Below, piece by piece: positions 1 through 12,554 of a DNA stretch of 12,554 nt. The stretch lies in the UHGV virus genome UHGV-0141061; one strand, written 5' to 3'. The notes under the pieces were generated by a model. The model saw only the letters and a list, made by a program, of their open reading frames with translations. It was not told the origin of the DNA and made no database searches. The DNA comes from a virus. How positions within the stretch are numbered: the first letter of the stretch is position 1; the number at the start of each line of letters is the position of its first letter. The position numbers and the translations under genes were made by a program.

Positions 1-48
1 TCTACACAGAGTAGATCGTCGGCAGCGTCAGATGTGTATAAGAGACAG
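1..48 (+). other. Illumina Nextera adapter (P5 tail CTACAC, i5 index AGAGTAGA, TCGTCGGCAGCGTC, Tn5 mosaic end AGATGTGTATAAGAGACAG); technical, not biological
   Basis: Read directly: 1-7 tctacac, 8-15 agagtaga, 16-29 tcgtcggcagcgtc, 30-48 agatgtgtataagagacag; its reverse complement is at 12508-12554. Confidence 0.9.
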
Positions 49-2849: not shown

Positions 2850-2937
2850 TTCATTGCTCCAGACGAATGATATGATGCAACCATGATGTGATTGCATACC
2901 GAAATGGTACTATTGAGTATTTATCCAGTAGGTTACG

Positions 2938-3231
2938 ATGCCATTCCACCCAACTGGTGAGGCATCAAGGATGTACAGCAAATACGACGAGGCGCAGTTT
3001 CACTTGAGACTTCCGCATGAACTTCACGCGAAAATTAAACAGCGTGCGAAGATGAATAACAGGTCGCTGAACTCAGAGATAATTGCAGCGATTGAAGAAT
3101 CATTGACTAAACAAAGCTCTGCATCAGTTTACATTGACGATGCAGAGCGTATGGCAGAACAACAATCCGATATGGTAAAGAAAATTGTCTTTGATACGCT
3201 CAAAGAGCTATATAAAAAAGACAGCAGCTAA
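2938..3231 (+). CDS. mnt: Mnt-like ribbon-helix-helix repressor
   Basis: FHLRLPHELHAKIKQRAKMNNRSLNSEIIAAIEESL...DAERMAEQQSDMVKKIVFDTLKELYKK parallels P22 Mnt (FNFRMPMEVREKLKFRAEANGRSMNSELLQIVQDAL...DAERLADEQSELVKKMVFDTLKDLYKK, recalled). An alternative start is ATG 2971. Confidence 0.8.
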   Translation: MPFHPTGEASRMYSKYDEAQFHLRLPHELHAKIKQRAKMNNRSLNSEIIAAIEESLTKQSSASVYIDDAERMAEQQSDMVKKIVFDTLKELYKKDSS

Positions 3232-3238
3232 CTATCAG

Positions 3239-3742
3239 TTACGGAGGATTCCCGATAGGGGGTAAGGGGGTATTTGTATTTATTGTCTTTTGTATATTGT
3301 CTTTTGTGTTTGACTGATTCGGTAAATTGCTTTTTACCGATTTGGTGAAGGTTTGTTTTACCGAATTGGTAAATGTTTTACCGAATCCGTTAACTTTCGT
3401 TTTCCACTCGGAAATGTTTGTATTCATACCAACTTGACGCCCCACCTGAATGAGAACTCCCATTCTGATAAGCTCGTTTTTGGCGGTAGAGCATTTGGTT
3501 GGTGCCATGCCAGTGAGTTCAGCGAACTGTTCGTTTCCGATCCAATCTATTTTTTTGTTGTAACCGTATGTCTTGCGCCACACAGCCATAACAATCAGTA
3601 ACTGATGTAGAGTAAGTCCAGAAAGCATGGCGGCTTCTAACAGTGTGTTTGCAGTCCGAGTGTAGCCATCTTCGAGTTCTGCCACGCGATGCTCCACGAC
3701 CTCCAGTTGAGGCCTGTAATCAGCTAACTTAACGACGCCCAT
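3239..3742 (-). CDS. Replication initiator O-like protein, N-terminal (iteron-binding) domain only; C-terminal domain absent
   Basis: DGYTRTANTLLEA..LTLHQLLIVMAVWRKTYGYNKKIDWIGNEQFAELTGMAPTKCSTAKNELIRMGVLIQ..NISEW parallels the lambda O N-terminal domain (recalled). AGGAG lies upstream of ATG 3740-3742. The ORF ends at TAA 3239-3241 just after the iteron and A+T-rich segment, where lambda O continues for about 130 more codons. Confidence 0.7.
   Translation of the reverse strand: MGVVKLADYRPQLEVVEHRVAELEDGYTRTANTLLEAAMLSGLTLHQLLIVMAVWRKTYGYNKKIDWIGNEQFAELTGMAPTKCSTAKNELIRMGVLIQVGRQVGMNTNISEWKTKVNGFGKTFTNSVKQTFTKSVKSNLPNQSNTKDNIQKTINTNTPLPPIGNPP
3318..3393. repeat. ori-like iteron array inside the O-like gene
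   Basis: Three direct 18-bp repeats TTTTACCGA(T/A)TTGGT(G/A)AA at 3332-3349 and 3356-3373 and TTTTACCGAATCCGTTAA at 3376-3393, plus an inverted partial copy ATTCGGTAAA at 3318-3327; an A+T-rich segment follows at about 3270-3317, arranged as in lambda ori. Confidence 0.5.
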
Positions 3743-3890
3743 GTTTCACTCCTGCTTTGGCTAGTCTGTAAACACCAACAAGGCGCTCTGCGAACGCCCT
3801 GTTATTTGCTGCGGCTACCACTAATCCCTCAGGTGAATCAGGGTGTCGAATCTCTTCTTTTTCCTGGTATTTCTTACGACGTTTTGTCAT
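3729..3890 (-). CDS. Small basic hypothetical protein (53 aa) between cII and O, overlapping the O-like start
   Basis: ATG 3888-3890 with AGGAG 7 nt upstream; MTKRRKKYQEKEEIRHPDSPEGLVVAAANNRAFAERLVGVYRLAKAGVKHGRR; stop TAA 3729-3731 overlaps the O-like start codon in another frame. Below the track's size cut-off; no homolog recognised. Confidence 0.3.
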   Translation of the reverse strand: MTKRRKKYQEKEEIRHPDSPEGLVVAAANNRAFAERLVGVYRLAKAGVKHGRR

Positions 3891-3900
3891 AATTACTCCT

Positions 3901-3976
3901 GTAGATTGATCCAGTAATTCCCTCAGAATTGCATATCAATTTGCTTAAAATCCTCGGTGGCGGCCGGGGATTTTTT
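3901..3976 (+). ncRNA. oop: OOP-like antisense RNA, antisense to the 3' end of cII, with intrinsic terminator
   Basis: gtagattgatccagtaatt..ctcagaa..tcctcggtggcggccgggga+TTTTTT parallels lambda OOP RNA (GUUGAUAGAUCCAGUAAUGACCUCAGAA...CGCUCGGUUGCCGCCGGGCGUUUUUU, recalled); hairpin 3952-3969 followed by a T-tract 3971-3976; a candidate -10 CATAAT is at 3888-3893. Confidence 0.5.
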
Positions 3977-4219
3977 CTTTGTGATTCCATCCAATGCATA
4001 CTTAAAAGCCCTGCTAATCGGACTGATGTCTGATGCCATTCCGAAAGCACACAAGACCGAAGCAATAAACCTCCAGTCCGTTCTGCTTATCTTCGATTCA
4101 TGACAGCCAATCATCTTTGCCAGACCGCGCTGGGTAAGCGTTGACAGGTTGATGAGTAAATCAGTTTCAGCGCGATCAATTTCTCGCTGTGTTGGCTTGC
4201 TATAACTTGCTTGTGTCAT
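3923..4219 (-). CDS. cII: CII-like transcriptional activator
   Basis: C-terminal ..KISRTDW..ITKKKSPAATEDFKQIDMQF parallels lambda CII ..QISRWKRDW..LTNKKRPAATERSEQIQMEF; position downstream of cro. Confidence 0.85.
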   Translation of the reverse strand: MTQASYSKPTQREIDRAETDLLINLSTLTQRGLAKMIGCHESKISRTDWRFIASVLCAFGMASDISPISRAFKYALDGITKKKSPAATEDFKQIDMQF

Positions 4220-4349: not shown

Positions 4350-4356
4350 GTGTTAC

Positions 4357-4557
4357 TTATGCAGTTGTTTTTTTGTTACTTGGGAAGGGCTTTATTTCTT
4401 CCGCATAAACGCTTCCATCAGCGTTTATAGTTAAAAAAATCTTTCGGCCTGCATGAATGGCCTTGTTAATCGCGCTTTGATATACGCCGAGATCTTTAGC
4501 CGTCTTGGTTTGCCCAAAGCGTATTGCATAATCTTTCAGGGTTATGCGTTGTTCCAT
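4357..4557 (-). CDS. cro: Cro repressor, near-identical to lambda Cro
   Basis: 66 aa [66 protein letters not shown]; differs from recalled lambda Cro at about 2 residues; AGGAGG precedes the ATG. Confidence 0.95.
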
Positions 4558-4581
4558 ACAACCTCCTTAGTACAGGCAACC

Positions 4582-5371
<790 letters not shown>

Positions 5372-5402
5372 TTGTTTTATTTTTCACGTAATAGGATGAT
5401 TT

Positions 5403-5744
5403 ATGACACAATTTCAACTTGCATTAATCGCTAGAGAAGTTGATGGAGAAGTCATCCATCTTCGCACCAAAGACGGATACATCAATGCCACCGCGATGTG
5501 CAAGTCTGCGGGGAAGCTACTTGCTGACTATACACGACTAAAAACAACACAAGATTTTTTTGATGAATTATCACGCGATATGGGGATTCCCATATCGGAG
5601 TTAATTCAATCATTTAAAGGCGGAAGAGCAGAGAATCAAGGGACTTGGGTTCATCCAGACATCGCAATTAATTTAGCTCAGTGGCTATCTCCAAAATTTG
5701 CAGTGCAAGTATCGAGATGGGTGCGTGAGTGGATGTCAGGTTAA
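5403..5744 (+). CDS. KilA-N domain protein (113 aa) immediately downstream of cI, in the position of lambda rexA
   Basis: AGGA 6 nt upstream of ATG 5403; GYINATAMCKSAGK...GTWVHPDIAINLAQWLSPKFAVQVSRWV is the characteristic KilA-N pattern; same strand as cI. Confidence 0.7.
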   Translation: MTQFQLALIAREVDGEVIHLRTKDGYINATAMCKSAGKLLADYTRLKTTQDFFDELSRDMGIPISELIQSFKGGRAENQGTWVHPDIAINLAQWLSPKFAVQVSRWVREWMSG

Positions 5745-5783
5745 AGAGCGCCTGCCGAACTCCCTATCCACCTTAAGCGGTAT

Positions 5784-6162
5784 ATGACAAACCGAGGCAG
5801 AGTTCCTCATACGCACTTTTCTATGCTTAATGAACTGACGTTTAACTTGGTTGCGCCACTTGAACAGGCCGGATATACGCTGCCAGAAAAAATGGTCCCT
5901 GATATTTCAGAGGGTAGGGTTTTCTCGCAATGGCTCCGTGACAACCGGGGGGTTGAGCCGAAGACATTCCCAACATATAACCATGAGTACCCAGATGGCC
6001 GGACATTCCCGGTACGTCTATACCCAAACGAATATTGCAGATTTCAAACAATACTTCAACGAAGTGTGGCTGCCTCAGTACGCTCCTAAATATTTTGCTG
6101 AACGAGACCAAAGGGCATTGACGTTGATTGAGAAAATCATGCTACCTGACCTTGATTCCTAA
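5784..6162 (+). pseudogene. Hypothetical protein with a broken reading frame (+1 shift between two overlapping ORFs 5784-6089 and 5851-6162)
   Basis: Frame 1 ...FPTYNHEYPDGRTFPVRLYPNEY and frame 2 ...NIADFKQYFNEVWLPQYAPKYFAERDQRALTLIEKIMLPDLDS both look protein-like and switch near 6020-6040; frame 1 is also in frame with the upstream KilA-N ORF across TAA 5742-5744; weak ribosome-binding site. Confidence 0.4.
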
Positions 6163-6557: not shown

Positions 6558-6758
6558 ATGATTACGCTAAGCGAAATGCTTCGCTCATATAAACCAGATG
6601 AACACACTAAGGACGCTATCGACTGGCTGGAAGATGATGACTGTAACTATCAGGAAAAAGCCGCTGAATGGTTCTGGGATGCAATAACCGAAAGAGTTAA
6701 GGCTGAATATGCCTTCGCAATATTCAAACGCAGACACATTTTTGGAGAAGCTGCATGA
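6558..6758 (+). CDS. Small acidic hypothetical protein (66 aa), first gene of the PL operon
   Basis: GGAGG 9 nt upstream of ATG 6558; stop overlaps the next start (ATGA at 6755-6758), implying translational coupling; no homolog recognised. Confidence 0.5.
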   Translation: MITLSEMLRSYKPDEHTKDAIDWLEDDDCNYQEKAAEWFWDAITERVKAEYAFAIFKRRHIFGEAA

Positions 6759-7090
6759 GCAATATCGTTGAATTCGTTAAACAGCAGGAGCAGTTATTCT
6801 GCGGAGCATTGACTGAACAGACGGTGACATGGGCTAAGGAAAGCCAGTTTGCAATTCAGTATTTCCAGAAAAACGATTACCTGGCTAAAACAGCACTGGC
6901 AAATCCAACCAGCGCACAGAACGCCATCATCAATGTTGCGGCGATCGGCATCACCTTAAACCCGGCCAGCAAACTGGCTTATCTGGTTCCTCGCGACGGC
7001 ATGGTGTGCCTTGATATCAGTTACATGGGATTACTTCATCTTGCGCAATCGACAGGATCAATTAAGTGGGGGCAATGCAAACTGGTGTAA
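6755..7090 (+). CDS. RecT/Red-beta-family recombinase, N-terminal fragment (truncated)
   Basis: ..NAIINVAAIGITLNPASKLAYLVPRDGMVCLDISYMGLLHLAQSTGSI.. follows the conserved RecT core pattern (E. coli RecT ..IVQCSQLGLEPGSALGHAYLLPFG..IIGYRGMIDLARRSGQI.., recalled) but stops at 111 aa where full-length proteins have about 270. Confidence 0.5.
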   Translation: MSNIVEFVKQQEQLFCGALTEQTVTWAKESQFAIQYFQKNDYLAKTALANPTSAQNAIINVAAIGITLNPASKLAYLVPRDGMVCLDISYMGLLHLAQSTGSIKWGQCKLV

Positions 7091-8274: not shown

Positions 8275-8466
8275 ATGACCGATACCAGCCTGATTCCTGA
8301 GAAAGAAGTGATGAACAAGCTCGGTGTTTCATCACGTCAGACAATCTGGAACTATACCAAACGGCACGGATTTCCGAAGCCAGTCAGAACCCACCCCAAA
8401 TCATACCTTCGTGAAGCTGTTGAAGGGTGGATTCTTAACGGTGGCGTTAATCAGAAATGCTCCTGA
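8275..8466 (+). CDS. AlpA/Xis-family DNA-binding protein (excisionase or regulator)
   Basis: GGAGA upstream of ATG 8275; ..MNKLGVSSRQTIWNYTKRHGFPKPVRT..YLREAVEGWI is the AlpA-type winged-helix pattern; lies beside the integrase; its 3' end overlaps the integrase 3' end by 20 bp. Confidence 0.8.
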   Translation: MTDTSLIPEKEVMNKLGVSSRQTIWNYTKRHGFPKPVRTHPKSYLREAVEGWILNGGVNQKCS

Positions 8467-8920
8467 TGTGCCAGAACAATTTATCAGCGTGAAGCTCATA
8501 CGCTTTGCGCTGAGCCTCTATCCAATCGAGTTTATTGTATACGGACATTATCCCGCCAAGTTCATGACCGAGCATTCGCTCAGTAACATGAGGCTCGACA
8601 TTCATCTCGGACAGCCGTGTAACAAGCGTTCTTCTGAAATCATGTGTTCGCCAGTAACCTAGGTCCATCCCTCCCCTTATTCTATTTACGAATCGGTTGG
8701 CTGCAGCGATGCTGATCGGTTTGTTTATGTCTTCTCCAGGGAAAAGAACATCATTGTACGTTGTCATGGCCTTTTCGAGGAAAGGCTTAATTTGTTCGAA
8801 GATTGGACGGCGGATAACATTACCCATCTTGCTATGCTCTTTCGGTACGGTCCATACGTTGTCCAGCAGGTCAAATTCTGTCTTTATTGCCAGCCTAAGT
8901 TCTGAGAGCCTCGCCCCCAC
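8447..8920 (-). pseudogene. Tyrosine integrase (P4 type), C-terminal catalytic fragment
   Basis: ..GARLSELRLAIKTEFDLLDNVWTVP..HDFRRT..LGHELGGIMSVYNKLDW.. shows the catalytic R/H-x-x-R/Y region; its frame differs from the central fragment at a C5 run (8914-8918). Confidence 0.8.
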
Positions 8921-9136
8921 AGCATAAGCATCTGATGAAGTAGCTTATTTGACGTAGACGCACGGCTTCTTTCAATAGCAAGCCAAATCTTAGCCAGTTC
9001 GTGATACGACAGTACCCGATCCCCTACCTCAGCGCGGGAGCCGAAGTCCCTTGGTTGGATGCTCATAATTGCGCAACTATCTATCAACTGACGCCGCATG
9101 CACCAACTAATTGCTGATCTTAGTTGACTTAGCACC
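8884..9136 (-). pseudogene. Tyrosine integrase, central fragment between the IS insertion and the frameshift
   Basis: In frame with the N-terminal fragment once the IS and one target duplication are removed (1341 bp, a multiple of 3); ends at a stop 8884-8886 created by the frameshift. Confidence 0.6.
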
Positions 9137-9200
9137 TGATGTAGCCCCCTGAAACACCAGACAGTAGCTGTATCTCCAGATAAGAGATAGGCTTGAATAT

Positions 9201-9596
9201 ATGTCTAACACTAACACCAATATTGAGATGACCGGGATCCTGTTAGGGCAAGAAGTCCGTAAACGTAAAACTCCTCAGGAGAAGATCGCCATTATCCAGC
9301 AGACGATGGAGCCGGGTATGAATGTCTCCCATGTCGCCCGCCTGCATGGTATCCAGCCCAGCCTGCTGTTTAAGTGGAAGAAGCAATATCAGGAAGGCAG
9401 CCTCACCGCCGTTGCGGCTGGAGAGGAAGTCGTTCCTGCTTCTGAGCTTACTGCTGCTCTGAAGCAGGTCCGGGAGCTTCAGCGCCTTCTGGGCAAGAAG
9501 ACGATAGAAGTTGAGATCCTAAAAGAAGCCGTGGAGTACGGTCAGTCGCGAAAATGGATAGCGCACGCGCCCTTGTTGCCAAAGGACGGGGAATAG
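9201..9596 (+). CDS. IS3-family transposase OrfA (helix-turn-helix and leucine zipper)
   Basis: ..[78 protein letters not shown].. resembles IS2 OrfA. Confidence 0.85.
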
Positions 9597-10435
9597 CCAT
9601 GGTCAGCCGGACCATGGGCGTGTCGCGTGCGCAACTGTCACTGCGGATTAACCGTTCTGCCGACTGGCAGGACAGGCGCTGTAACCGGCGTAATGAAGAA
9701 GCAGACGCAGAAATACTGTCGGCTATCCTCAACATTATCAGCGATATGCCGAGTTATGGTTATCGACGCGTGTGGGGCATCCTGCGCAAGCAACGTCGCA
9801 CAGAGGGACAGCCACCTGTGAATGCCAAACGGCTTTACAGGATAATGAGCGAGCATAACCTGTTGTTGTTGCATCACAAACCAGAGCGACCGAAGCGTGA
9901 ACATAAGGGCAAGATAGCGGTGGCAGAAAGCGATATGCGCTGGTGTTCAGATGGCTTCGAGTTCGGCTGCGACAACGGCGAAAAACTGCGGGTAACGTTC
10001 GCGCTGGACTGCTGCGACCGTGAGGCCATAGACTGGGCAGCAAGCACGGGAGGCTATGACAGTTCGACCGTGCAGGATGTGATGCTGAGGTCGGTGGAAA
10101 AGCGCTTCGGCGACAGGCTGCCGGAAACACCAGTGCAGTGGCTGACGGACAACGGTTCAGCATATACCGCGCATGAAACGCGGAGGTTCGCCAAAGAGCT
10201 GAATCTGGAGCCATGTACAACAGCGGTGAGCAGCCCGCAGAGCAATGGCATGGCCGAACGGTTCGTGAAGACGATGAAGGAAGACTATATCGCGTTCATG
10301 CCGAAACCGGATGTGAGAACAGCCCTGCGGAACCTTGCAGCGGCGTTCACGCATTACAATGAAAATCACCCGCATAGTGCGCTGGGATATCACTCTCCGA
10401 GAGAATACCGGCGGCAGCGGGCATCGTTAACTTAA
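9554..10435 (+). CDS. IS3-family transposase OrfB (DDE catalytic domain), in the -1 frame relative to OrfA
   Basis: ..[92 protein letters not shown].. is a DDE integrase-core pattern resembling IS2 OrfB; overlaps orfA by 43 nt. Confidence 0.85.
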
Positions 10436-10472
10436 GATACAAAAGCTGTCCGGAAATGGCGGGTCAAGATCA

Positions 10473-10965
10473 GCACCTGCCTTGCTCGGCGTGGATTATC
10501 TTTTTCTTCTTCGGTAAGCAGGTCAACCCATTGCTTAACCGTGATAGAAGATGCCGGACGATTAGGGAAGGCGTCATGCATGCGCTTCATAACCGTTGAT
10601 CGGTAAAGTGCCTGGGTCTTTTCTCTGAGAGTTGTAGAGACGTAGTTGTCGAACCAGTAGTCGAGACACTGGGCGACCGTCATGGAGTTCTCCACCTTCT
10701 CTTCAAAATAGGTGCGTGGATCCGTTCCTGAGAAATAGAGCTTCCGCAAGTCAGCAGTGATCTGTCTGGCATCCTTCAAAGACAGGGATGGGTATCGACC
10801 AAGCCCAAGTCGTTTAGGCTTGCCATACCAGCGATAGCGGTACTGGAACTGGATGACCCCCTTCGGTGAAATTCGTACGCTGAGGCCATCGGCATCAGCC
10901 ACTTCTTGTGGGCCCGAATATGGTTTACCATAAATAGTACGCAGTTTTGTGTCGCTTATAGCCAT
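10473..10965 (-). pseudogene. Tyrosine integrase (P4 type), N-terminal fragment upstream of the IS insertion
   Basis: MAISDTKLRTIYGKPYSGPQEVADADGLSVRISPKGVIQFQYRYRWYGKPKRLGLGRYPSLSLKDAR is the characteristic N-terminal arm-binding domain of P4-type integrases; the track ORF continues 13 codons into the IS before stopping. Confidence 0.8.
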
Positions 10966-11146: not shown

Positions 11147-12507
11147 ATGACAGACACAGATAAACAACCTACCTTCCTCTTTCACGATTACGAAACCTTT
11201 GGCACGCACCCCGCGTTAGATCGCCCTGCACAGTTCGCAGCCATTCGCACCGATAGCGAATTCAATGTCATCGGCGAACCCGAAGTCTTTTACTGCAAGC
11301 CCGCTGATGACTATTTACCCCAGCCAGGAGCCGTATTAATTACCGGTATTACCCCGCAGGAAGCACGGGCGAAAGGAGAAAACGAAGCCGCGTTTGCCGC
11401 CCGTATTCACTCGCTTTTTACCGTACCGAAGACCTGTATTCTGGGCTACAACAATGTGCGTTTCGACGACGAAGTCACACGCAACGTTTTTTATCGTAAT
11501 TTCTACGATCCTTACGCCTGGAGCTGGCAGCATGATAACTCGCGCTGGGATTTGCTGGATGTTATGCGTGCCTGTTATGCCCTGCGCCCGGAAGGAATAA
11601 ACTGGCCTGAAAATGATGACGGTCTACCGAGCTTTCGCCTTGAGCATTTAACCAAAGCGAATGGAATTGAACATAGCAACGCCCACGATGCGATGGCTGA
11701 TGTGTACGCCACTATTGCGATGGCGAAACTGGTAAAAACGCGTCAGCCACGTCTGTTTGATTATCTCTTTACCCATCGTAATAAACACAAACTGATGGCG
11801 TTGATTGATGTTCCGCAGATGAAACCCCTGGTTCACGTTTCCGGAATGTTTGGGGCATGGCGCGGCAATACCAGCTGGGTGGCACCGCTGGCGTGGCATC
11901 CAGAAAATCGCAATGCCGTAATTATGGTGGATTTGGCAGGAGACATTTCGCCATTACTGGAACTGGATAGCGACACATTGCGCGAGCGTTTATATACTGC
12001 AAAAGCCGATCTTGGCGATAACGCCGCCGTTCCGGTTAAGCTGGTGCATATCAATAAATGTCCGGTGCTGGCCCAGGCGAATACGCTACGCCCGGAAGAT
12101 GCCGACCGACTGGGAATTAATCGTCAGCATTGCCTCGATAACCTGAAAATTCTGCGTGAAAATCCGCAAGTGCGTGAAAAAGTGGTGGCGATATTCGCGG
12201 AAGCCGAACCGTTTACGCCTACAGATAACGTGGATGCACAGCTTTATAACGGCTTTTTCAGTGACGCAGATCGTGCAGCAATGAAAATTGTGCTGGAAAC
12301 CGAGCCACGTAATTTACCGGCACTGGATATCACTTTTGTTGATAAACGGATTGAAAAGCTGTTGTTCAATTATCGGGCACGCAACTTCCCGGGGACGCTG
12401 GATTATGCCGAGCAGCAACGCTGGCTGGAGCACCGCCGCCAGGTATTCACGCCAGAGTTTTTGCAGGGTTATGCTGATGAATTGCAGATGCTGGTACAAC
12501 AATATGC
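11147..12507 (+). CDS. sbcB: Exodeoxyribonuclease I (SbcB), 3' end truncated by the contig/adapter boundary
   Basis: By-eye translation with no stops: MTDTDKQPTFLFHDYETFGTHPALDRPAQFAAIRTDSEFNVIGEPEVFYCKPADDYLPQPGAVLITGITPQEA...EFLQGYADELQMLVQQYA matches E. coli SbcB except in the first 12 or so residues. Absent from the ORF track, presumably because it has no stop before the window end. Confidence 0.9.
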
Positions 12508-12554
12508 CTGTCTCTTATACACATCTGACGCTGCCGACGATCTACTCTGTGTAG
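12508..12554 (-). other. Illumina Nextera adapter, reverse complement of 2-48; technical
   Basis: ctgtctcttatacacatct gacgctgccgacga tctactct gtgtag read directly. Confidence 0.9.

What the first reader, a model, noticed from the sequence alone, without database searches (positions are those of the whole stretch)
3239..3400. O-type initiator ends immediately after its own ori iterons and abuts a convergent mnt
The O-like ORF keeps the N-terminal iteron-binding domain, the iteron array (3318-3393) and the A+T-rich segment, then stops at 3239-3241, only 7 bp from the mnt stop codon. The whole C-terminal helicase-loader-recruiting domain and the P gene are missing. This is a precise candidate for the deletion junction that removed everything between the replication module and the immI-like region. 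A DNA-binding-only O fragment with its cognate iterons could in principle titrate or block the origin of related phages, but it sits in the cI-repressed PR operon, which argues against that.
Basis: partly seen in the sequence, partly recalled or inferred. Interest (0 to 1): 0.6.

Follow-up and report, generated by a model that had tools for sequence, protein, structure and literature searches.

The report
Deletion scar truncating a prophage replication initiator
A roughly 22 kb deletion in a defective P22-like prophage of E. coli cut the phage's replication-initiator gene just past its built-in origin and joined it to the spacer after the mnt repressor gene; this is an ordinary relic of prophage decay, not a new kind of initiator.

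Summary
A 167-codon O/gp18-type ORF (3239-3742, minus strand) has a complete Phage_rep_O DNA-binding domain. It also contains four dyad-symmetric iterons (3310-3393) and a 40-bp A+T-rich tract (3270-3309). Its stop codon lies 7 bp from the convergent mnt stop.

BLAST from both sides places the junction at 3250|3251. O homology (99% to a 276-aa O in an intact prophage at the same sbcB site) ends after codon 164. The tail NPP-stop is read from the spacer downstream of mnt. About 112 C-terminal residues, the DnaB-type helicase gene and roughly 22 kb of nin, lysis, head and ejection genes are missing.

The junction is not a misassembly. Eleven independent assemblies share it at 98.4-100% identity, in an att-flanked 12.8-kb remnant between sbcB and dacD. 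It is also not a naturally short initiator: most listed homologues are 258-293 aa.

O' is most likely an inert, young relic that cannot start replication. It shows no DNA variation in any copy, so selection on it cannot be assessed.

One side finding is more interesting. Within this remnant family, three independent mutations hit the PR -35/-10 hexamers and one introduces a cro nonsense codon.

The parts
3251..3742 (-). O-derived part of the truncated initiator gene O' (codons 1-164), including the complete Phage_rep_O DNA-binding domain
   Evidence: Pfam PF04492 matches residues 19-113. There are 5 mismatches in 492 nt to the 276-aa O of the intact E. coli 980-2 prophage, and then identity is lost completely.
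3239..3250 (-). Junction-derived tail of O': codons Asn-Pro-Pro plus TAA, read from the complement of the spacer 3' of mnt
   Evidence: Identity to IME10 runs through 3250 and to Sf101 through 3239. O identity starts at 3251.
3250..3251 (.). Deletion junction with no microhomology (O ...CTATCGGG | AATCCTCC... spacer)
   Evidence: Comparing the parental sequences shows no shared base on either side of the junction.
3310..3393 (.). Four 17-bp dyad-symmetric iterons (consensus TTTACCGAATTGGTAAA), start-to-start spacing 23, 24 and 20 bp
   Evidence: 0.02 matches expected by chance. Same position within O as the lambda iterons.
3270..3309 (.). A+T-rich tract of the origin (22.5% GC, contains a 14-nt direct repeat ACAAAAGACAATAt/a on the O strand)
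3251..3269 (.). G+C-rich segment next to the A+T-rich tract. In the parent it forms the palindrome CCCCCTAACGGGGG, and the deletion cuts its 3' arm.
   Evidence: The hairpin is predicted but is not more stable than shuffled sequence.
2971..3231 (+). mnt (Arc/Mnt-family repressor; 86 aa from this ATG, 97 aa from the ATG at 2938), convergent with O'
   Evidence: Pfam Arc plus Repressor_Mnt. 97-98% identity to Sf101 and IME10.
3232..3250 (.). The 19 bp that remain of the 89-bp spacer between mnt and the convergent ejection-protein gene of an IME10-like parent
3729..3890 (-). 53-aa ORF (HK97 gp53; occupies the position that P22 orf48 holds between oop and gene 18) overlapping the O' start
3901..3975 (+). 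Homologue of the oop antisense RNA with its terminator (3947-3974). Boundaries are approximate.
   Evidence: The terminator scan found it. It aligns by eye to lambda oop. No Rfam family matched.
3923..4219 (-). cII
   Evidence: Pfam Phage_CII.
4357..4557 (-). cro (lambda type)
   Evidence: PF09048.
4582..4610 (-). PR promoter, TTGACT-17-GATAGT. The -10 hexamer carries a derived A-to-G change; lambda, HK97, the 980-2 prophage, 10 control loci and sisters L006/L010 have GATAAT.
4658..5371 (+). cI repressor (lambda type, 237 aa, intact HTH plus S24 peptidase domains), which represses the operon containing O'
11180..11192 (-). 13-bp att core CGTAATCGTGAAA at the sbcB end of the remnant
   Evidence: The second copy lies 12,759 bp away in sister locus L004. 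The core sequence was taken from PMC4159516.

Best explanation
O' is the left stump of a single illegitimate deletion of about 22 kb inside a P22-like (Lederbergvirus, Sf101/IME10-type) prophage. The prophage has lambda-type immunity and is integrated at sbcB in E. coli or Shigella. The deletion runs from O codon 164, inside the short G+C-rich palindrome that follows the origin's A+T-rich tract. It ends in the spacer 19 bp downstream of mnt.

What was removed: the helicase-recruiting C-terminal third of O, the DnaB-type helicase gene, the nin genes, Q, and the lysis, packaging, head and ejection genes.

What remains: PR-cro-cII-oop-orf53-O'(ori) fused tail-to-tail to mnt, followed by the tailspike gene and the O-antigen acetyltransferase gene.

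Shown: the junction position, the colinearity on both sides, and the missing domain and genes.

Inferred:
- If cI is inactivated, O' can be made and can bind its four iterons, but it cannot recruit a helicase, so the origin is dead.
- With the integrase also split by an IS element, the element is locked in the chromosome.
- O' itself is a neutral relic. It is intact only because the deletion is recent.
For: - Junction position. Megablast of 3100-3400 against 5,426 complete E. coli genomes splits exactly into 3100-3250 (annotated Arc-family protein) and 3251-3400 (annotated replication protein). No genome covers both halves. Phage hits give the same split.
- Intact relative. An intact prophage at the same sbcB-dacD site in E. 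coli 980-2 has a 276-aa O that differs at 5 of 492 nt up to the junction, followed by helicase, nin, Q, lysis, head and ejection genes, then mnt, arc, ant and tailspike. The distance from O nt 493 to the end of the last ejection-protein gene is about 22.3 kb.
- Independent copies. The identical 167-aa protein and junction occur in 11 independent assemblies at 98.4-100% identity. These include NCBI GCA_050029375.1, several gut metagenomes, Logan assemblies and an IMG/VR contig. Where the flanks are present they are sbcB and dacD.
- Prophage boundaries. The 13-bp att cores described for Sf101 and phage 2851 flank a 12,759-bp remnant in L004.
- Domain architecture. Literature read here describes an N-terminal DNA-binding domain, a linker and a C-terminal partner-binding domain, with the origin in the middle of O (PMC6022878, PMC7466680).
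- Recency. Positions 2971-3742 are invariant at the DNA level in all 11 sister loci.
Against: - No parent with exactly this combination (lambda-type immunity, this O allele, and IME10-type mnt, tailspike and oac) was recovered. The single-deletion scenario therefore rests on parsimony and on the shared gene order of P22-like prophages at this site.
- No reads were available to me.
- 'Neutral relic' cannot be separated from 'retained by selection', because the family is too young to show decay anywhere in O'.
- The remnant keeps the oop-plus-iteron combination that interferes with lambda replication when cloned on plasmids (PMC3349717), so a residual activity is not excluded.
Confidence: 0.85

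Rival explanations
1. Assembly chimera: the contig wrongly joins the replication region of one prophage to the mnt-tailspike region of another.
For: Both contig ends carry untrimmed Nextera i5 adapter plus mosaic-end sequence, so read cleaning was poor. No complete E. coli RefSeq genome has the junction.
Against: The same junction, base for base, is found in 11 other assemblies made from different samples, including a 46-kb scaffold and an NCBI genome assembly that run from sbcB to dacD and cobU. The adapters are confined to positions 1-48 and 12507-12554.
Confidence: 0.02
2. A naturally short initiator: a functional O variant made only of the DNA-binding domain, working with a separately encoded partner.
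For: Several other database proteins of this family end at 147-159 aa, in or right after the origin (P0025 with 153 member sequences, P0033, P0070, P0112).
Against: P0025, P0070 and P0112 sit directly upstream of a helicase gene, with the C-terminal domain still present in another reading frame. In P0025 the cause is loss of one 14-nt repeat unit in the A+T-rich tract. They are frameshifted full-length genes, not a short family. In the window nothing of the C-terminal domain or the helicase remains, and identity to full-length alleles stops abruptly at 3251. Most of the 120 listed homologues are 258-293 aa.
Confidence: 0.02
3. Domesticated interference module: the retained oop RNA gene, iterons and O' together inhibit replication of superinfecting phages that use the same iteron and O specificity. 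This would work by titration, by handcuffing, or by the oop-plus-iteron 'inhibition phenotype' described for lambda.
For: The remnant keeps a homologue of tO-oop-pO plus all four iterons. That combination is necessary and sufficient for CI-independent inhibition of lambda-type replication when cloned on pBR322, and the A+T-rich tract is not needed (PMC3349717). The deletion end lies just outside this unit.
Against: The published phenotype was obtained with multicopy plasmids, whereas this is a single chromosomal copy. [quoted passage not shown] O' is under PR, which cI represses. The family is too young to show conservation. Independent mutations are weakening PR, which would lower O' expression further.
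Confidence: 0.06
4. Two-step or recombinational origin: the mnt-tailspike-oac block was brought next to O by recombination between two different prophages, not by one internal deletion.
For: The two sides have different best database relatives: Salmonella and E. coli lambdoid O alleles on one side, IME10 and Sf101 on the other. Lambdoid genomes are mosaics. Sister loci L008 and L009 show a later swap of the immunity region.
Against: Both sides are in the order and orientation expected for one P22-like prophage between the sbcB att cores. Sf101 itself integrates at sbcB and carries mnt, tailspike and oacB at that end. The junction has no homology on which recombination could act.
Confidence: 0.05

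Closest known systems
Lambda O / P22 gp18 / HK97 gp54 replication initiators (Pfam PF04492) with the origin inside the gene
   Same: The N-terminal domain matches the full Pfam model. There are four dyad-symmetric iterons followed by a 40-bp A+T-rich tract, at the same nucleotide positions within the gene as in lambda (350-433 against 349-433). The gene sits in the same place in the PR operon, after cII, oop and a small ORF.
   Different: It lacks the last ~112 residues (the partner-binding domain) and the adjacent helicase gene. It ends in three foreign codons. It cannot be a working initiator.
Sf101, IME10 and other P22-like prophages integrated at sbcB, and their IS-disrupted remnants in Shigella flexneri (PMC4159516)
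   Same: Same 13-bp att core, the same integrase type, and the same mnt, tailspike and O-acetyltransferase end at 97-98% identity. The paper already reports Sf101-like integrases in most, and IS elements in all, of the sequenced S. flexneri genomes it inspected at this site.
   Different: This remnant has lambda-type cI and cro, a different O allele, and a specific ~22-kb internal deletion that the paper does not describe.
Replication-defective cryptic lambda prophages selected as survivors of 'replicative killing' (Hayes laboratory; PMC6022878, PMC3349717)
   Same: Trapped prophages that can no longer initiate replication from ori because O or P is hit by insertions or deletions. They retain the immunity region plus part of the replication region.
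   Different: Those are laboratory constructs and selections. This one is a natural lineage found in gut metagenomes and isolates.
Plasmid-borne oop-ori-lambda fragments that give a CI-independent 'inhibition phenotype' (PMC3349717)
   Same: Same set of sequence elements: the oop gene with its terminator, plus iterons 1-4.
   Different: Single copy in the chromosome, a P22/HK97-type replicon rather than rep-lambda, and no phenotype measured.

Membership tests
Lambda-O / P22-gp18 type replication initiator | N-terminal DNA-binding domain matching PF04492 above the gathering score | tested here: met
   125.3 bits against a cut-off of 28.7, model positions 1-95 of 95.
Lambda-O / P22-gp18 type replication initiator | Origin (iterons plus an adjacent A+T-rich tract) located inside the gene | tested here: met
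   Four iterons at 3310-3393 and a 22.5% GC tract at 3270-3309. Same intragenic position as in lambda.
Lambda-O / P22-gp18 type replication initiator | C-terminal domain that binds the partner (P or the gp12 helicase) | tested here: not met
   Alignment to the 273-aa and 276-aa alleles ends at residue 164. The last three residues are foreign.
Lambda-O / P22-gp18 type replication initiator | Partner gene (helicase or loader) immediately downstream | tested here: not met
   The next gene is the convergent mnt. The window contains no helicase gene.
Lambda-O / P22-gp18 type replication initiator | Binds its iterons and initiates replication | not testable with these tools
   Needs EMSA or footprinting and a replication assay.
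Defective (cryptic) prophage produced by internal deletion | Colinear with intact relatives on both sides of a sharp junction | tested here: met
Defective (cryptic) prophage produced by internal deletion | Bounded by att repeats at a known integration site | tested here: met
   13-bp cores 12,759 bp apart in L004, between sbcB and dacD. attL lies at window 11180-11192.
Defective (cryptic) prophage produced by internal deletion | Junction reproducible in independent samples (not an assembly artefact) | tested here: met
   11 sister loci from different assemblies.
oop-ori interference fragment (CI-independent replicative inhibition) | oop with promoter and terminator, plus iterons, in cis | tested here: met
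   Sequence elements are present. Transcription of oop was not tested.
oop-ori interference fragment (CI-independent replicative inhibition) | Inhibits plating of phages with the same replicon type | not testable with these tools
   Published only for multicopy plasmids carrying lambda sequences.

The most novel reading that the evidence does not exclude
The deletion left a unit (oop, four iterons and a DNA-binding-only O') that works as a replicon-type-specific block against superinfecting phages sharing this O and iteron specificity. It would complement the cI immunity and O-antigen modification kept by the same remnant. The parallel PR and cro mutations would then reflect tuning of a domesticated defence and immunity island, not simple decay.
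Probability: 0.06. Interest if true: 0.6.

Novelty: new member of a known kind. Interest (0 to 1): 0.25.

Why it matters
As described, the finding is a well-resolved example of ordinary prophage decay. It defines to the base pair how a P22-like serotype-converting prophage was reduced to an immunity, tailspike and O-acetyltransferase island.

Two by-products could matter more.

1. After the deletion, the family accumulated parallel mutations in the PR promoter hexamers and in cro while keeping cI intact. This is a natural record of selection on a lambda-type genetic switch once lysis and replication are gone.

2. Several unrelated lesions of O genes fall in or right after the origin: a blunt deletion, a microhomology fusion to the scaffolding gene 9 nt away, a fusion inside the iterons, loss of a 14-nt repeat unit, and two further frameshifts at the origin whose cause was not examined. 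This hints that the repeat-rich origin is a fragile site.

Tried and rejected
- **Rfam scan of the whole window:** no family at gathering score, so the oop call rests on the terminator scan and on direct comparison with lambda.
- **PDB sequence search with O':** only chance matches, E >= 0.1.
- **Exact 24-mer across the junction:** 0 hits in GTDB species representatives, 1 in JGI metagenomes and 1 in IMG/VR. The junction is also absent from 5,426 complete E. coli genomes, so the lineage is rare in reference collections.
- **Context of the O::scaffold fusion protein P0009:** A synthetic chimeric DNA query found no complete E. coli genome with that fusion, so it is documented only at the protein level.
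- **Hairpin at the breakpoint:** the parental CCCCCTAACGGGGG stem is predicted but is not more stable than shuffles (z = 0.67). I treat the palindrome-hotspot idea as a hint only.
- **sieA-like gene at the right end:** I first thought the right end lay at the ribosome-binding site of a sieA-like gene, because GGAGGATTTATG follows mnt in IME10. ORF listing showed no ORF of 50 aa or more starting there, and the junction lies in the 89-bp spacer before the convergent 797-aa ejection-protein gene. The idea was rejected.
- **cII start-region SNPs (4196, 4202, 4215):** two are synonymous and one lies next to a recombination boundary, so they do not count as evidence of selection.
- **L028 and L032 (same cI):** these turned out to be different rearranged remnants without this O allele.

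Full report
**What is in the window.** The window is ENA contig ERZ652521 NODE_127, reverse-complemented. Its first 48 and last 48 bases are Nextera i5 adapter (index AGAGTAGA) plus the transposase mosaic end. Homology to E. coli stops at 12508.

The gene order on the + strand is as follows:
- the 3' part of an O-antigen acyltransferase gene (34-567, +);
- a P22-type tailspike gene split by a nonsense codon (603-1634 and 1668-2849, -);
- mnt (2971-3231, +);
- the truncated initiator O' (3239-3742, -);
- a 53-codon ORF (3729-3890, -);
- cII (3923-4219, -);
- lambda-type cro (4357-4557, -) and cI (4658-5371, +);
- fragments of a KilA-N/BstA-like gene;
- a truncated recT;
- an AlpA-like gene;
- an integrase split by an IS3-family element;
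- the att core at 11180-11192, followed by sbcB.

**Check of the observation.**
- O' is 167 aa and matches the complete Phage_rep_O model (residues 19-113, 125 bits).
- Four 17-bp dyad-symmetric iterons lie at 3310-3326, 3333-3349, 3357-3373 and 3377-3393. With up to 3 mismatches to TTTACCGAATTGGTAAA, these are the only matches in the 12.5-kb window, against 0.02 expected. The array starts at 3310, not 3318.
- Downstream in the O reading direction is a 40-bp tract of 22.5% GC with strong strand asymmetry (3270-3309).
- The iterons occupy O nucleotides 350-433. The annotated lambda iterons occupy 349-433, so the architecture is conserved in position.
- The O' stop (3239-3241) is 7 bp from the mnt stop (3229-3231).

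**Where the junction is.** Megablast of 2850-3330 against phage records gives IME10 identity through 3250 (Sf101 through 3239), and O or gene 18 identity (P6, SaI_NFG_5581, BTP1; P22 from 3256) starting at 3251. Megablast of 3100-3400 against 5,426 complete E. coli genomes splits into 3100-3250 (Arc-family protein) and 3251-3400 (replication protein). No genome holds both halves in one place.

The best full-length allele is the 276-aa O of an intact prophage at the same chromosomal site in E. coli 980-2. It differs at 5 of the first 492 nucleotides and has no similarity from nucleotide 493 onward. O' therefore consists of 164 O codons plus Asn-Pro-Pro-stop read from the complement of the spacer downstream of mnt.

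On the mnt side, the IME10 parent has an 89-bp spacer between mnt and a convergent 797-aa ejection-protein gene. The junction lies 19 bp into that spacer. The two parental sequences share no base at the junction, so this was a blunt illegitimate join. In the parental O sequence the break falls in the 3' arm of a short palindrome, CCCCCTAACGGG|GG. That stem is not more stable than shuffled sequence, so I give it little weight.

**What was lost.** In the 980-2 prophage, the segment between O nucleotide 493 and the end of the last ejection-protein gene is about 22.3 kb. It contains the C-terminal 112 residues of O, a 458-aa DnaB-type helicase, ninB through ninH, Q, the lysis genes, terminase, portal, scaffold, coat, head-completion and needle genes, and three DNA-transfer proteins. 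The partner gene in this replicon type is a helicase (P22 gene 12 type; HK97 'P, similar to DnaB'), not a lambda-P loader.

**Real, not an artefact, and not a short family.** The identical 167-aa protein is indexed in 58 blocks of the assembly collection and is recorded on 28 contigs. Nine assemblies other than the window's own were retrieved through this protein, and two more through the junction 24-mer. Ten of these are 99.4-100% identical to the window over the shared remnant. The eleventh, L014, is 98.4% identical because of a divergent tailspike tract.

Long contigs place the element between sbcB and dacD-sbmC-yeeA. The 13-bp att core reported for Sf101 and phage 2851 (PMC4159516) occurs twice in L004, 12,759 bp apart.

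Most of the 120 best homologues are 258-293 aa. The shorter ones I examined are contig-end partials, frameshifted full-length genes still followed by a helicase (P0025, P0070, P0112), or other fusions (P0009, P0041).

**How it works.** The origin (iterons plus A+T-rich tract) sits in the middle of the gene (PMC6022878; PMC7466680).

O' keeps the first domain and the whole origin up to 19 bp past the A+T-rich tract, and lacks everything needed to recruit a helicase. It sits downstream of PR, which was found by the promoter scan at 4610-4582 and is controlled by an intact cI. My inference is that O' is silent in the repressed state. If cI is cleaved, O' could bind its iterons, but the complex would be a dead end.

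All six sister contigs that extend to this point (L005, L006, L010, L011, L012, L015) end within about 200 bp of the start of the IS (window 9166-9349). This is consistent with the same IS-disrupted integrase in the whole family, so the element is probably locked in place twice over.

The region 2971-3742 has no DNA difference in any of the 11 sister loci. The intactness of O' is therefore explained by youth and says nothing about selection.

**The decoy idea.** The remnant also keeps a homologue of oop (about 3901-3975, +). Its terminator was found at 3947-3974. Its 5' part is nearly identical to lambda oop.

Hayes et al. (PMC3349717) showed that pBR322 clones carrying tO-oop-pO plus iterons block lambda-type replication independently of cI. 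The A+T-rich tract is dispensable for this. Clones with O and ori but without oop do nothing, whether or not O is expressed.

The remnant thus contains the required sequence elements, but as a single chromosomal copy of a different replicon type. I give this reading about 6%.

**Side findings.**

(a) Selection on PR and cro. Among 29 unique SNP sites in about 9.1 kb across the family, three fall in the 12 bases of the PR hexamers (binomial P about 8e-6).
- The window and most sisters have -10 GATAGT.
- Lambda, HK97, the 980-2 prophage, sisters L006 and L010, and 10 unrelated loci encoding the identical cI all have GATAAT.
- L011 adds -35 TTAACT and L015 adds -35 TTGGCT.
- L012 carries cro Q16*.
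- The cI gene is an intact 237 codons in every sister contig that includes it, except L008, whose immunity region has been replaced.

This looks like selection against PR-operon expression, or for locking the immune state, after the deletion. O expression alone is reported as non-toxic (PMC6022878), so O' is probably not the cause.

(b) Other lesions at the origin. P0009 (E. coli, WP_445547730.1) is this same O allele fused in frame after codon 161 to the C-terminus of a P22-type scaffolding protein, through the microhomology TTACC. That break is 9 nt from the window's. P0041 is fused inside the iterons. P0025, with 153 member sequences, lost one 14-nt repeat unit of the A+T-rich tract. Because my query was the N-terminal domain, the sample is biased, and a hotspot is only suggested.

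(c) Immunity swap. L008 and L009 have the same junction but a different cro, operator region and cI N-terminus, with the recombination boundary near 4350.

(d) A comparable remnant elsewhere. E. coli WS4437A-1 has an independent remnant that keeps a glucosyltransferase-domain gene, tailspike and mnt. Next to these are an ejection-protein pseudogene and a helicase C-terminal fragment.

**Verdict.** The feature is a recent deletion scar in a defective, serotype-converting P22-like prophage: a new example of a well-known kind of object.

Noticed in passing
window 4582-4610 (PR), 4512 (cro); sister loci L006, L010, L011, L012, L015: Three independent mutations hit the PR -35/-10 hexamers in the family that carries the deletion: -10 GATAAT to GATAGT in the window and most sisters, -35 TTGACT to TTAACT in L011, and -35 to TTGGCT in L015. 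L012 also has cro Q16*. All 13 comparison sequences (lambda, HK97, the 980-2 prophage and 10 loci with the identical cI) have the consensus hexamers. Three of 29 SNP sites fall in 12 bp (P about 8e-6).
   Followed up: partly
window 1-48 and 12507-12554: Both contig ends are untrimmed Nextera i5 adapter (TCTACAC-AGAGTAGA-TCGTCGGCAGCGTC) plus the mosaic end AGATGTGTATAAGAGACAG, in inverted orientation. They are not biological sequence, and the ORFs called across them are artefacts.
   Followed up: yes
protein P0009 (WP_445547730.1, E. coli); S. flexneri fragments P0004, P0006, P0007, P0013: A second, independent deletion in the same O allele. O codons 1-161 are fused in frame to the last 44 residues of a P22-type scaffolding protein through the microhomology TTACC, 9 nt from the window's breakpoint. 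The genomic context could not be retrieved.
   Followed up: partly
L019 2996-3800, L020 2936-3740, L024 797-1649, L025 3073-3962, L018 1958-2605: Other O genes are broken in or just after their origin. L019 and L020 lost one 14-nt direct-repeat unit of the A+T-rich tract, which shifts the frame to a stop in the palindrome (P0025, 153 member sequences). L024 and L025 have split O genes upstream of helicase genes. L018 has a fusion inside the iterons to a scaffold-like C-terminus.
   Followed up: partly
window 1668: The tailspike gene is interrupted by a single nonsense change (TGG to TGA), shared only with L004. All other sister loci that include this position have an intact tailspike of about 750 aa.
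   Followed up: yes
window 8447-10965: The integrase gene is split by an IS3-family (IS2-like) element at about 9150-10450. Six sister contigs end within about 200 bp of the IS start, which suggests the insertion is shared by the whole family.
   Followed up: partly
window 5403-6162: Downstream of cI is a KilA-N ORF (113 aa) followed by overlapping ORF fragments; the sister loci's precomputed annotation gives a weak BstA_C hit for a 55-aa ORF in this stretch. It looks like a pseudogenised BstA-type abortive-infection gene. A 301-aa protein with a BstA_C domain occupies this position in L029.
   Followed up: no
L008 76-1063 and L009, against window 4350-5372: Two sister loci have the identical O'|mnt junction but a different cro, operator region and repressor N-terminus (217-aa HTH_3/S24 repressor, 71-aa Cro). 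The immunity region was exchanged by recombination after the deletion.
   Followed up: partly
L017 (E. coli WS4437A-1, NZ_CP035822.1 1969713-1976863): An independent P22-like remnant next to dsdX keeps a glucosyltransferase-domain gene, tailspike and mnt. These are joined to an ejection-protein pseudogene and a 222-aa helicase C-terminal fragment. Remnants that retain the O-antigen-modification, tailspike and mnt end seem to recur.
   Followed up: no
window 3901-3975 (+): A homologue of the oop antisense RNA overlaps the 3' end of cII and has a strong terminator hairpin at 3947-3974. No Rfam family matched it.
   Followed up: partly
L023 (lambda NC_001416) 39157/39158 and 39165/39166: The lambda record annotates two misc_recomb points just after the A+T-rich tract of ori. 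This is the same place within O as the breakpoints found here. I did not establish what they refer to.
   Followed up: no
window 6755-7090: A truncated recT (111 aa, matching model positions 4-76 of 198) points to at least one further internal deletion in the early-left region of the remnant.
   Followed up: no
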